Origin: a virus
Lineage: Duplodnaviria; Heunggongvirae; Uroviricota; Caudoviricetes
IMG/VR virus record: IMGVR_UViG_2778261708_000011
Direction: 5' to 3' (one strand)
DNA length: 11,013 nt
The position numbers and the translations under genes were made by a program. This document shows, piece by piece, positions 9,056-9,781 of this stretch. Under the pieces are notes generated by a model. That model had not been told where the DNA came from, did not search any database, and worked only from the letters and a program-made list of their open reading frames with translations. The first letter of the stretch is position 1. Each line of letters starts with the position of its first letter.

Positions 9056-9190
9056 CTACTCATCAAGACACCGCACGGTGTTCTCAGCAAACAGTTCCGC
9101 TACCCGGCGTTAAGGGGAAGCAGAGGATTTCTCAGTGGGCGAGTCAAACATCAGAATGGAAGGCGTCCAGGGATCAGCAAAGAAACAGCG

Positions 9191-9490
9191 ATGGCGCTTT
9201 ATATTGATATCAGCGCCATTGCCGGACAGGTAAGAGTTATCAGAGCGGTAACTAAGCGGTATGCGCCTTTACTTCAGAAAGTCTCTGGTGAGTGCACCGA
9301 AGATATTGTCAACGATTTCGTCATCGAACTGCGAGGACTCATCTTCAGTTACAAGGTGACCACAATTTTTGCAGATGGCTCCCGCGAAACTGTCAGAGCC
9401 CTGCGGCTTAAAGGATGTGTCAAAGACTTAGCCACCACATTCTGGGCAAGAAAACTTGATTGTATTCATAACCAATTTCCTCTCGAGTAA
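9191..9490 (+). CDS. Hypothetical protein, 99 aa
   Basis: ORF with varied codon use but only a weak SD. An alternative 33-codon ORF (GTG 9135 to 9233, GAGGA 7 nt upstream) overlaps its start, so the true gene structure here is unresolved. Confidence 0.4.
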   Translation: MALYIDISAIAGQVRVIRAVTKRYAPLLQKVSGECTEDIVNDFVIELRGLIFSYKVTTIFADGSRETVRALRLKGCVKDLATTFWARKLDCIHNQFPLE

Positions 9491-9562
9491 CAGACCCCTC
9501 AGAGGATACCACCTCGCCTGACGTGGTTAAAAAGCAGGCAACGCTAACCACAAGGAGCCGAC

Positions 9563-9781
9563 ATGCAGAAACGAGACCCCGTCATCATCGCGCCAGACTA
9601 TACCGATGATGAACTTTATGAGTGGATGCACCAGAAAATTAAGGCGGTGCAGGACCTGAAATGGGCCAATGAAGCCAGGGCTAAGCAGGCTGAAAATCTG
9701 TCCGCTCTGGAGCAGGATATCACCAATCTGGAAAAAGCAGCGGCATTAAGCATTGCCAGAATGATTACATACCCACGTTAA
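9563..9781 (+). CDS. Hypothetical small protein, 72 aa, likely helical (YdfC-equivalent position)
   Basis: ATG with AGGAG 5 nt upstream; MQKRDPVIIAPDYTDDELYEWMHQKIKAVQDLKWANEARAKQAENLSALEQDITNLEKAAALS... Same length as K-12 YdfC as I recall, but I cannot confirm sequence identity. Confidence 0.55.
   Translation: MQKRDPVIIAPDYTDDELYEWMHQKIKAVQDLKWANEARAKQAENLSALEQDITNLEKAAALSIARMITYPR

What the first reader, a model, noticed from the sequence alone, without database searches (positions are those of the whole stretch)
9135..9781. Unresolved small-gene structure immediately downstream of dicA
After dicA there is a promoter-like element at 9026-9055 and then two competing readings: a 99-aa ORF from ATG 9191 with a poor SD, or a 33-codon ORF from GTG 9135 with GAGGA at ideal spacing. 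A well-initiated 72-aa helical ORF follows at 9563-9781. In K-12 Qin this position holds ydfA, ydfB and ydfC, which are 42-72 aa, so genes below the 60-aa cut-off of the ORF track may be the real units here.
Basis: partly seen in the sequence, partly recalled or inferred. Interest (0 to 1): 0.4.

Follow-up and report, generated by a model that had tools for sequence, protein, structure and literature searches.

The report
Broken two-strand gene pair after dicA
The two "competing" reading frames downstream of the dicA-like repressor are the halves of one 118-codon prophage gene split by a one-base deletion, and a small zinc-ribbon gene lies hidden on the opposite strand inside it, also inactivated here. 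The locus is a doubly dead copy of what looks like a conserved overlapping gene pair.

Summary
They are not alternatives. Relatives carry a single 118-codon ORF that starts at the GTG (window 9135) behind the GAGGA. The window, like 291 complete O157:H7-type genomes, lacks one A after 9141. That leaves a 32-codon out-of-frame stub and a 99-codon body without a Shine-Dalgarno (SD) sequence. The orthologous O55:H7 prophage at ompW is intact, so the deletion is derived.

There are no ydfA or ydfB homologues here. ydfC (9563-9781) is real and intact.

A 66-codon zinc-ribbon gene lies on the minus strand at 9469-9269, inside the plus ORF and codon-aligned with it. It matches the NCBI family ECs_2282, and RefSeq annotates it in relatives. 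In the window a TAA at codon 14 kills it.

Substitution patterns show strong purifying selection in the minus frame across the overlap. They show weaker but real selection in the plus frame outside it. Both ORFs have their own SD and start in every diverged lineage examined. The best reading is a conserved antiparallel overlapping gene pair, both members dead in this prophage. O157:H7 keeps an intact copy in another prophage. The functions of both proteins are unknown.

The parts
9026..9055 (+). Promoter-like site (TTGACC-18-TAAATT) with cTTAGG/CTAA operator-like repeats. It is the positional homologue of the DicA/DicC-repressed promoter upstream of ydfA in K-12 Qin.
   Evidence: Scan hit. The -35 hexamer aligns with K-12 TTGACC. 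K-12 promoter context from PMC5069750.
9061..9134 (+). 5' leader of the early-left (dicB-type) operon. 9061-9119 is shared with K-12 Qin, and 9094-9134 is shared with other prophage types. It contains the small hairpin CCCGGCGTTAAGGG.
   Evidence: blastn gives 95% identity to K-12 L022 2438-2497. Alignments.
9123..9127 (+). Shine-Dalgarno GAGGA, 7 nt before GTG 9135.
   Evidence: Conserved as AGAGGA, AGAGGG or AGGGGA in all E. coli-type relatives.
9135..9233 (+). 32-codon stub: the native start (GTG GGC GA-) of the 118-codon ORF, followed by out-of-frame codons ending at TAA 9231-9233.
   Evidence: Relatives read VGEVKHQNGRRPGISKETAMALY... from the same GTG.
9141..9142 (+). Site of the 1-bp deletion (GGGCGAAGTC in relatives, GGGCGAGTC here). 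It is derived in the O157:H7 lineage.
   Evidence: Alignment with phage Stx2_14040 and with the orthologous O55:H7 prophage, which is 99.86% identical over 7.8 kb. The exact allele is in 291 genomes.
9191..9490 (+). 99-codon body of the frameshifted ORF (RefSeq WP_001240336.1, phrog_21318). It holds the complete conserved core but has no SD of its own.
9269..9469 (-). Pseudogene of a 66-codon ECs_2282-family zinc-ribbon protein (CPECG...CKNCG). ATG at 9469-9467, stop at 9271-9269, premature TAA at codon 14 (9430-9428). Codon-aligned antisense to plus codons 46-112.
   Evidence: Apart from the stop, the window translation is identical to WP_001092153.1.
9478..9484 (-). Shine-Dalgarno GAGAGGA of the minus-strand gene, 8 nt before its ATG. 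It overlaps the last codons of the plus ORF.
   Evidence: -6.5 kcal/mol. Other lineages have AAGGAGG or AAGAAGGA at the same place.
9563..9781 (+). ydfC, 72 aa, intact, with AAGGAG 5 nt upstream.
   Evidence: 95% nt identity to K-12 ydfC. RefSeq name 'protein YdfC'. phrog_1744 at 9e-39.

Best explanation
Window 9135-9490 is the wreck of a two-strand gene pair at the head of the repressor-controlled early-left (dicB-type) operon of the prophage at ompW.

Plus strand. Relatives have one 118-codon ORF that starts at the GTG behind GAGGA. Loss of one A in codon 3 here leaves ribosomes starting at 9135 to make a 32-residue nonsense peptide and stop at 9233. The 99-codon body (ATG 9191) has no SD and lies under the stub's reading frame. 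It can be made, if at all, only by weak internal initiation or by re-initiation after termination 40 nt downstream of its ATG. This last step is inferred.

Minus strand. A 66-codon zinc-ribbon gene of the ECs_2282 family lies wholly inside the plus ORF. Each of its codons is the reverse complement of a plus codon. In the window a GAA-to-TAA change at codon 14 stops it.

Order of events. The nonsense mutation is the older event (516 genomes). The frameshift came later, within O157:H7 (291 genomes).

ydfC follows intact.

What is shown: the frameshift relation, the antisense ORF and its inactivation, and the frame-specific selection patterns. What is inferred: that the plus ORF is a true protein-coding gene in relatives (about 70% likely), and that its start is the GTG rather than Met20 (about 65% likely). 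The biochemical roles of both proteins are unknown. The minus gene lies antisense to the early-left operon, as sieB does, and in one relative directly follows sieB. I therefore guess it is a lysogen-expressed accessory (exclusion or defence-type) protein, and that the plus gene is an early lytic accessory protein.
For: One ORF, frameshifted.
- The alignment shows a single missing A.
- The 118-aa gene is annotated from this GTG in PPompW/Stx2a phages, phage Evi and vB_EcoS-640R1.
- 47 of 48 unique E. coli-type sequences (99 loci) have 118 codons. Only the window type is broken.
- The orthologous O55:H7 prophage is intact.

Allele counts.
-.

Minus gene is real.
- NF047912 scores 57.3 bits against a cutoff of 37.
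- It is 66 codons with the same start and stop in the six diverged lineages examined (the E. coli type, the L018-L021 group, L106/L107, L108, L109 and L110). CPECG and CxxCGH are conserved and each lineage has a strong SD.
- Fitch changes in the overlap at plus codon positions 1/2/3 are 63/11/21, which is the minus-frame wobble pattern.
- Minus-frame dN/dS is 0.23 (0.14-0.36), against 0.53 for the plus frame.
- RefSeq annotates it wherever it is intact.

Plus gene is real.
- Outside the overlap (codons 20-45) the plus frame has the lowest dN/dS of the six frames: 0.29 (0.07-0.56).
- Amino-acid identity there is 61%, against 42% in the in-register minus frame, at 66% nt identity. Position 3 is the most variable (18/15/30).
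- The ORF is open for 94-174 codons in every lineage. Each lineage has its own SD and start in unrelated upstream sequence, for example AGAGGTGAAAA-ATG in L108 and GGAGGCAGGAAAA-ATG in L106.
- It is always the first cistron after the repressor or a TA module.

GTG start.
- The GTG changes to ATG in L005, the SD is conserved, and L007 carries a compensated double indel.
Against: - The 19-codon N-terminal extension shows no codon periodicity (22/18/19 changes). It is absent from distant homologues, whose ORFs start at or a few codons (up to ten) upstream of the Met20 position. The GTG start is therefore not proven.
- Among close E. coli-type sequences the plus-frame pN/pS is only 0.55-0.6 in codons 1-50 and at least 1 in the overlap.
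- An ORF that is the codon-aligned antisense of a gene lacking TTA, CTA and TCA codons is necessarily open. Part of the plus ORF's length therefore needs no selection.
- A control frame in the extension is also stop-free.
- Neither protein has a confident predicted structure (pLDDT 65 and 58) or a structural match.
- No promoter for the minus gene was found.
- The only expression data are for the ECs2282 copy in Sakai and are low: RIBOseq RPKM 7.3, coverage 0.44.
Confidence: 0.7

Rival explanations
1. Only the minus-strand zinc-ribbon gene is real. The 118-codon plus ORF is a shadow ORF. It stays open because it is the exact reverse complement of a gene that avoids TTA, CTA and TCA, and chance extends it through 45 further codons. 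Neither of the first reader's two ORFs is then a gene, and the window simply holds one dead small gene.
For: - The minus-frame selection signal is much the stronger in the overlap.
- PGAP suppresses the plus ORF whenever the minus ORF is intact.
- The extension shows no periodicity.
- Minus-frame wobble sites in the overlap change at about 0.94 per site. That is as fast as plus-frame wobble sites outside it (0.92), so the plus frame adds no visible constraint there.
- The plus ORF ends exactly where the L018-L021 type uses a TCA codon.
Against: - Plus-frame dN/dS is 0.29 and amino-acid identity is 61% against 42% in the 26 codons that lie beyond the minus gene's stop.
- The plus ORF always extends 25-106 codons beyond the minus gene.
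- It has a good SD and start in each of five unrelated upstream contexts.
- It sits as the first cistron directly behind the operon leader.
Confidence: 0.2
2. The RefSeq reading. The native gene is the 99-aa ORF from ATG 9191 in all alleles. The GTG-initiated stretch is never part of the protein. The 1-bp deletion then only changes an upstream ORF, and the gene is functional in the window.
For: - PGAP annotates the 99-aa ORF even where the 118-codon frame is open.
- Distant homologues start at the Met20-equivalent position with strong SDs (L108, L106).
- The extension has no periodicity and is predicted disordered.
- At least two independent frameshifts in the extension exist in nature: the window type and the P0005 cluster.
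Against: - ATG 9191 and its equivalents in all E. coli-type loci lack an SD (-3.1 to -3.9 kcal/mol). The GTG or ATG 19 codons upstream keeps one.
- The frame from GTG into the core is kept in 47 of 48 unique sequences, including one with two compensating indels. The adjacent 60-nt leader has four indel columns in the same set.
- In the window, ribosomes starting at the strong GTG site run across ATG 9191 in another frame.
Confidence: 0.08
3. The region holds independent small genes of the ydfA/ydfB kind, with the 32-aa GTG ORF as one of them.
For: It has a good SD at ideal spacing. K-12 has two small genes in this slot.
Against: - tblastn of YdfA and YdfB finds nothing in the window.
- The 32-aa frame exists only in the deletion allele. 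In all other alleles the same GTG opens the 118-codon frame.
- The peptide was not found in the supplementary files held for the Sakai small-gene study.
Confidence: 0.02

Closest known systems
dicBF operon of the K-12 cryptic prophage Qin (dicA - promoter - ydfA ydfB ydfC - dicF - dicB - ydfD)
   Same: Same architecture and partly the same DNA. There is a DicA-family repressor (NF007257, 242 bits). The promoter is positionally homologous. The leader is 95% identical (9061-9119). ydfC is 95% identical. The dicF-dicB region is 95% identical (10436-11013).
   Different: The ydfA-ydfB cassette is replaced by the unrelated 118-codon/66-codon two-strand module. An extra 630 bp (the 135-aa and 77-aa ORFs) lies between ydfC and dicF.
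ECs_2282 family putative zinc-binding protein (NCBIfam NF047912; WP_001092153.1)
   Same: The minus-strand ORF at 9469-9269 is identical to WP_001092153.1 at 65 of 66 codons. It has the CPECG...CKNCG pair.
   Different: Codon 14 is TAA in the window, so it is a pseudogene here. The family has no known function. Matches to Lar-type restriction-alleviation models are below threshold (E = 0.01-0.014).
Antisense (antiparallel) overlapping gene pairs reported in E. coli O157:H7 (for example ano/ECs2385, laoB, pop/ompA, asa)
   Same: A short ORF is fully embedded antisense in another ORF. Both have SD and start, and there is some ribosome-profiling signal for the embedded one in Sakai.
   Different: Here the embedded gene is the better-conserved partner and carries a recognisable fold motif. 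The pair is conserved as a pair in all six diverged lineages examined, whose public records name E. coli, Klebsiella, Citrobacter and Enterobacter. The two frames are exactly codon-aligned. In the window both partners are inactivated.
sieB-type lysogen-expressed genes lying antisense within the early-left region of lambdoid/Rac-type prophages
   Same: The minus gene has the same orientation relative to the repressor and early-left operon as sieB in Rac. In locus L110 it lies directly downstream of a SieB-family gene on the same strand.
   Different: There is no sequence similarity to SieB. No promoter was identified and no exclusion phenotype has been tested.
Lambda N-type antiterminator (first gene after pL, preceded by nutL)
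   Same: Position only: the first cistron behind the repressor-controlled leftward promoter, with a small conserved hairpin in the leader.
   Different: There is no arginine-rich motif (the N-terminus is MGEVKHQNGRRPGISKE). No N-family hit in Pfam or PHROGs. The same leader hairpin precedes the unrelated ydfA in K-12.

Membership tests
YdfA (DUF1391) / YdfB of K-12 Qin | Sequence similarity to K-12 YdfA (51 aa) or YdfB (42 aa) | tested here: not met
   tblastn against the whole window gives no hit at E <= 10 in this region. blastn shows that homology to Qin stops at 9119 and resumes at the ydfC ATG, 9563.
YdfC | Sequence similarity to K-12 YdfC over the full length, with the same position upstream of dicF/dicB | tested here: met
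   95% nt identity over 239 bp. The 72-aa proteins differ at 5 positions. RefSeq names it ydfC. phrog_1744 at 9e-39.
ECs_2282 family zinc-binding protein (NF047912) | HMM score above the curated cutoff | tested here: met
   The intact allele (L024) scores 57.3 bits against a cutoff of 37. It is identical to the window's minus ORF except at codon 14.
ECs_2282 family zinc-binding protein (NF047912) | Two CxxC pairs (CPxCG ... CxxCG) conserved | tested here: met
   C8, P9, E10, C11, C36, G37 and H38 are invariant. C33 is present in all but one aberrant sequence. The same residues are in the window's conceptual translation.
ECs_2282 family zinc-binding protein (NF047912) | Uninterrupted 66-codon reading frame | tested here: not met
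   TAA at codon 14 (window 9430-9428), so the window copy is a pseudogene. The exact 61-mer that carries this stop is in 516 of 5426 complete genomes.
ECs_2282 family zinc-binding protein (NF047912) | Zinc binding | not testable with these tools
   Motif only. The AlphaFold model is of low confidence (pLDDT 58).
phrog_21318 / WP_001240336.1 (118/99-aa plus-strand family) | Profile match over the full core | tested here: met
   8.6e-67 over residues 20-118. The family is small: 23 clusters in 5.8 billion proteins and 11 representatives in 1.84 billion.
phrog_21318 / WP_001240336.1 (118/99-aa plus-strand family) | Reading frame continuous from the SD-linked start | tested here: not met
   The 1-bp deletion after 9141 separates GTG 9135 from the core.
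Antiparallel overlapping protein-coding gene pair | Both ORFs intact and co-located across diverged lineages | tested here: met
   The six diverged lineages examined (the E. coli type, the L018-L021 group, L106/L107, L108, L109 and L110) all keep the 66-codon minus ORF and a 94-174-codon plus ORF across it.
Antiparallel overlapping protein-coding gene pair | Purifying selection detectable in each frame | tested here: inconclusive
   The minus frame is clear (omega 0.23). The plus frame is clear only outside the overlap (omega 0.29, CI 0.07-0.56, 26 codons). Inside the overlap the plus-frame signal cannot be separated from the minus-frame constraint.
Antiparallel overlapping protein-coding gene pair | Both products expressed | not testable with these tools
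   The only data are low RNA-seq and RIBOseq values for ECs2282 in Sakai. There are none for the plus ORF, whose operon is repressed in lysogens.
Lambda N-type antiterminator | N-terminal arginine-rich RNA-binding motif, or a family profile match | tested here: not met
   No Pfam, PHROG or NCBIfam hit. The N-terminus has only 2-3 basic residues.

The most novel reading that the evidence does not exclude
The 118-codon plus ORF and the embedded 66-codon zinc-ribbon gene are a true dual-coding module, conserved as a pair in all six diverged lineages examined, whose public records name E. coli, Klebsiella, Citrobacter and Enterobacter. One partner is read from the repressed early-left operon and the other from the opposite strand in the lysogen. 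Prophage induction would then switch the locus from one product to the other through convergent transcription. A further possibility is that the plus ORF is kept open mainly so that the first 360 nt of the operon stay translated and protected from Rho. The O157:H7 frameshift would then expose about 330 nt of untranslated RNA, with a C-rich, G-poor stretch at 9446-9523, and dampen dicF/dicB expression from this prophage.
Probability: 0.4. Interest if true: 0.65.

Novelty: new member of a known kind. Interest (0 to 1): 0.45.

Why it matters
- Annotation. Public annotation of this very common prophage locus is inconsistent. About 920 of 5426 complete E. coli genomes carry it. Depending on the allele, RefSeq names either a 99-aa plus-strand "hypothetical protein" or the antisense ECs_2282-family protein. 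Phage records call a 118-aa protein. Showing that these are one frameshifted ORF plus an embedded antisense gene explains the disagreement. It also flags the O157:H7 copy as a double pseudogene.
- Overlapping genes. If both strands are truly coding, this is a well-conserved antiparallel overlapping gene pair with selection signals and its own SD and start on each strand in six diverged lineages. Such cases are rare and often disputed, so it would be a useful test case for dual-coding models.
- The dicF/dicB operon. The locus sits at the head of an operon that makes DicF and DicB. A frameshift in the first cistron could affect expression of those regulators in EHEC. This is untested.

Tried and rejected
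- Function by homology, plus protein. Pfam and NCBIfam gave nothing. PHROGs gave only an unnamed family. Two very large protein searches found only close prophage relatives. The AlphaFold model (pLDDT 65) had no match at E <= 0.001 in PDB or BFVD.
- Function by homology, minus protein. Only generic zinc-ribbon and sub-threshold Lar-like hits. The model was too poor (pLDDT 58) to search with.
- Published evidence. The 32-aa peptide and its DNA are not in the supplementary files held for the Sakai small-gene study. No paper mentions ECs2282 in its main text.
- Stop-codon avoidance test. Zero plus-frame stops were seen where about 7 were expected among 210 substitutions. I rejected this as evidence because a control frame in the extension is equally stop-free.
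- Codon avoidance in the minus gene. TTA, CTA and TCA are nearly absent, but the numbers are too small to be significant.
- Species-representative genomes. The scan for relatives returned nothing that tblastn confirmed.
- Leader RNA. No Rfam match, and no covariation because the sequences are nearly invariant, so nothing can be said about structure.
- Promoter for the minus gene. None met the consensus threshold. By eye there is only a weak TTAACC-16-TATCCT candidate.
- N-type antiterminator idea. Rejected for lack of an arginine-rich motif and of any profile hit.
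Full report
**1. The observation**

The ORFs are exactly as described.
- GTG 9135 to TAA 9233 is 32 aa.
- ATG 9191 to TAA 9490 is 99 aa.
- ATG 9563 to TAA 9781 is 72 aa.

GAGGA (9123-9127) lies 7 nt before the GTG. Its anti-SD duplex energy is -5.8 kcal/mol, in the top 9% of all ATG/GTG sites on the window's plus strand. ATG 9191 has no usable Shine-Dalgarno (SD) sequence. ydfC has AAGGAG at -7.7 kcal/mol.

The promoter-like site 9026-9055 is found by the consensus scan. Its TTGACC aligns with the TTGACC of the K-12 promoter upstream of ydfA. That promoter is described as repressed by DicA and DicC (PMC5069750).

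**2. Where the window comes from**

Window 8900-9810 is 100% identical to a prophage of E. coli O157:H7. Window 3244-11013 is 99.86% identical to the prophage integrated next to ompW in O55:H7 strain DEC5B.

The upstream gene is a DicA-family repressor (NF007257, 242 bits). It is divergently paired with a Cro-like gene and followed by YdaT, O- and P-type replication genes.

**3. The two "competing" plus-strand ORFs are one frameshifted ORF**

- In the PPompW/Stx2a phage records the gene is annotated as 357 nt (118 aa) starting at the same GTG. Phages Evi and vB_EcoS-640R1 carry an ORF of the same length at the same position, and it also starts at this GTG.
- A pairwise alignment shows that the window lacks one A: GGGCGAAGTC in relatives, GGGCGAGTC at 9138-9146.
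- The intact protein reads MGEVKHQNGRRPGISKETA-MALYIDISAIAGQ...PLE. The window's 32-aa ORF is therefore three native codons plus 29 out-of-frame codons. The 99-aa ORF is the body from Met20.
- Among 99 related loci, which give 48 unique sequences, 47 unique sequences have the full 118 codons. Only the window type (11 loci, one sequence) is broken.
- In 5426 complete E. coli genomes the exact deleted 63-mer occurs in 291. Every 100% match shown in a spread sample of rows is an O157:H7 strain or a strain with no serotype label, and none carries another serotype.
- The intact-length allele occurs in most of the other roughly 640 genomes that carry the locus, including O55:H7, O111 and O145. The orthologous O55:H7 prophage has the A. 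The deletion is therefore derived and arose within the O157:H7 lineage.
- It is not in a long homopolymer and it recurs in hundreds of independent assemblies, so it is not a sequencing artefact.

**4. Comparison with K-12 Qin**

K-12 has dicA, ydfA, ydfB, ydfC, dicF and dicB. Homology between the window and Qin covers three stretches:
- the operon leader (9061-9119, 95%);
- ydfC, starting exactly at its ATG (9563-9801, 95%);
- the dicF-dicB region (10436-11013, 95%).

There is nothing between 9119 and 9563. tblastn of YdfA and YdfB against the window finds nothing there. The ydfA-ydfB cassette and the 118-codon module are therefore alternative, unrelated occupants of the same slot. The idea that sub-60-aa genes of the ydfA/ydfB kind are the real units here is not supported.

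**5. A gene on the other strand**

I searched the complete genomes with a relative that has a longer leader. In alleles of that type RefSeq annotates something else at this locus: a 66-aa minus-strand ORF named "ECs_2282 family putative zinc-binding protein". It does not annotate the plus ORF there.

- Sequence: MNTIKFSCPECGGEVFDTSFKPQGSDSFAGAICKNCGHLVTEDESSQFDDEIVDNIFGALTRDFLK.
- It matches NCBIfam NF047912 at 57.3 bits against a cutoff of 37.
- In that O157:H7 locus (L024) the plus 118-codon ORF is also intact.
- In window coordinates the minus ORF runs from ATG 9469-9467 to TAA 9271-9269.
- Its SD is GAGAGGA at 9484-9478.
- It is codon-aligned with plus codons 46-112. Minus position 3 is plus position 1, and the second positions coincide.
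- In the window, and in all PPompW-type alleles including O55:H7, codon 14 is TAA. On the plus strand this is TTA where others have TTC, with the variant base at 9430.
- The exact 61-mer carrying this stop is in 516 complete genomes. RefSeq annotates these with the plus 99-aa "hypothetical protein". Most of the other 406 genomes carry the ECs_2282 annotation.

This gives the order of events. The nonsense mutation in the minus gene came first. The plus-strand frameshift came later, in O157:H7.

**6. Which strand is coding?**

*E. coli-type sequences.* I counted parsimony changes on a neighbour-joining tree of the 47 ungapped unique sequences.

| Region (plus codons) | Changes at plus codon position 1 / 2 / 3 | Reading |
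|---|---|---|
| Overlap, 46-112 | 63 / 11 / 21 | Wobble pattern of the minus frame |
| 20-45 | 20 / 12 / 24 | Weak plus-frame pattern |
| 2-19 (N-terminal extension) | 22 / 18 / 19 | No periodicity |

*Diverged lineages.* I brought in the L018-L021 group, L106/L107, L108, L109 and L110. The public records that hold these or closely related proteins name Klebsiella, Citrobacter and Enterobacter. All keep a 66-codon minus ORF with the same start and stop. All keep the CPECxG...CxxCGH motif and a strong SD: AAGGAGG at -12.4 kcal/mol, or AAGAAGGA.

*Six diverged lineages compared*:

| Measure | Overlap (codons 46-112) | Beyond the minus stop (codons 20-45) |
|---|---|---|
| Minus (in-register) frame dN/dS | 0.23 (bootstrap 0.14-0.36) | 0.56 (0.26-1.04) |
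| Plus frame dN/dS | 0.53 (0.35-0.76) | 0.29 (0.07-0.56), lowest of six frames |
| Amino-acid identity, minus frame | 70% | 42% |
| Amino-acid identity, plus frame | 61% | 61% |
| Nucleotide identity | 75% | 66% |
| Minimum changes at plus positions 1/2/3 | 55 / 19 / 39 | 18 / 15 / 30 |

The plus ORF is open for 94-174 codons in every lineage. In each it has a good SD and start in unrelated upstream sequence:
- GAGGG-7-ATG in L018;
- AGAGG-6-ATG in L021;
- AGAGGTGAAAA-ATG in L108;
- GGAGGCAGGAAAA-ATG in L106.

My reading is as follows. The minus gene is certainly a real gene. The plus ORF is probably one too (about 70%), because the part of it that lies outside the minus gene evolves like coding sequence in its own frame.

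Inside the overlap the plus-frame signal cannot be separated from the minus-frame constraint. Minus-frame wobble sites there change as fast (0.94 per site) as plus-frame wobble sites outside it (0.92). The plus product's C-terminal two thirds therefore seem little constrained.

An ORF that is the exact antisense of a gene without TTA, CTA or TCA codons is automatically open. The shadow-ORF rival therefore remains alive at about 20%.

**7. Where does the plus protein start?**

For the GTG:
- The SD is conserved.
- The GTG is ATG in L005.
- The GTG-to-core frame is kept in 47 of 48 unique sequences, while the neighbouring 60-nt leader has four indel columns.
- L007 has two compensating indels inside the extension.

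Against the GTG:
- The extension has no periodicity.
- It is predicted disordered.
- It is missing from distant homologues. L108 and L106 start at the Met20-equivalent position with strong SDs, and L018 and L021 start four and ten codons upstream of it.
- At least one other natural frameshift lies in the extension, in the P0005 cluster.

I put the GTG at about 65%. Either way, the 99-aa ORF in the window contains the complete conserved core but has lost its link to the only good ribosome-binding site. Ribosomes that start at 9135 cross ATG 9191 out of frame and stop 40 nt beyond it. Residual expression by re-initiation is possible but is only an inference.

**8. What the proteins do**

This is unknown.

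The plus family is tiny. It has 23 clusters among 5.8 billion proteins and 11 representatives among 1.84 billion. It has no Pfam or NCBIfam hit and no structural match. It is always the first cistron after the repressor, or after a ParE/PaaA2, HigBA or RelBE module inserted there.

The minus protein has a zinc-ribbon motif and an acidic C-terminal half. Matches to Lar-type restriction-alleviation models are below threshold. It is oriented like sieB in Rac. In L110 it directly follows a SieB-family gene on the same strand. This fits a lysogen-expressed accessory gene, but that is a guess from context.

A published Sakai data set lists ECs2282 with low RNA-seq and RIBOseq signals in LB: RPKM 9.0 and 7.3, coverage 0.44 (PMC5597208 supplement). 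I could not check the coordinates against the 66-codon ORF, so I treat this as weak support only.

**9. ydfC**

ydfC is intact, well initiated and 95% identical to K-12 ydfC. It is named ydfC by RefSeq. Nothing about it is unresolved.

**10. Verdict**

In the window the locus is ordinary in one sense, being a decayed prophage region with two inactivating mutations. In relatives it is of moderate interest as a likely conserved antiparallel overlapping gene pair that current annotation pipelines resolve inconsistently.

Noticed in passing
window 10757-10806 (+): A DicF sRNA copy scores 43.5 bits, just below Rfam's gathering score of 48, so it was missed by the default scan. Window 10436-11013 is 95% identical to the K-12 dicF-dicB region, and dicB starts near 10981.
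   Followed up: partly
window 9804-10435: A 135-aa plus ORF (phrog_1363) and a 77-aa minus ORF (phrog_10348) form a 630-bp insertion relative to K-12 Qin between ydfC and dicF. Both are annotated as hypothetical in RefSeq.
   Followed up: partly
L016 2830-2990, and equivalents in L003-L017 and L025 (K-12 Rac): A leader of about 160 nt (CCAACCCACCCCGCCCCACAGAACGCAGGGCAATACTTCGAGTTACC...) is nearly invariant among prophages whose immunity regions and downstream genes differ. It is more conserved than the coding sequence. It is present in 3679 of 5426 E. coli genomes, including K-12 Rac between racR and ydaF. It has no Rfam match and no covariation. The window lacks it and keeps only the last 41 nt or so.
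   Followed up: partly
window 9094-9119: A 26-nt element, GTTCCGCTACCC(C)GGCGTTAAGGGGAA, with a CCC(C)/GGG(G) hairpin, is shared by three otherwise different leaders: the window, K-12 Qin ahead of ydfA, and the L016 type. It sits just before the first cistron's SD. It could be a module junction or a small regulatory hairpin.
   Followed up: no
L106/L107 2495-3019 (minus strand of those loci): In L106 and L107 the plus-family ORF is 174 aa. Its first 78 residues resemble the C-terminal half of the window's 135-aa ORF (9804-10211). Met79 has its own strong SD. This is either a gene fusion or two abutting cistrons read as one.
   Followed up: no
RefSeq annotation of this locus (L001, L023, L024): PGAP names the minus-strand ECs_2282-family ORF where it is intact. 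It names the plus 99-aa ORF where the minus ORF carries the stop. It never annotates the 118-codon form and never flags either as a pseudogene.
   Followed up: yes
window 9034; L002: The -35 hexamer of the operon promoter is TTGACC in the window and TTAACC in the Stx2_14040-type PPompW prophage. Apart from the 1-bp indel, this is the only difference between the two in the 480-nt segment aligned (window 9020-9500).
   Followed up: no
L007, L009, L011, L013, L015, L024: Toxin-antitoxin modules (ParE/PaaA2, HigB/HTH, RelB/RelE) are often inserted between the repressor gene and the 118-codon ORF in relatives. The window has none.
   Followed up: no
window 3491-3640 (-) and 326-572 (-): A sok antitoxin RNA (104 bits), which implies a hok/sok module, and three tRNA genes lie elsewhere in the window.
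   Followed up: no
window 9446-9523 (+): A C-rich, G-poor stretch (C 0.30, G 0.17) lies at the end of the plus ORF and in the spacer before ydfC. It would be untranslated in the frameshifted allele. It is a possible Rho entry site, but this is pure conjecture.
   Followed up: no
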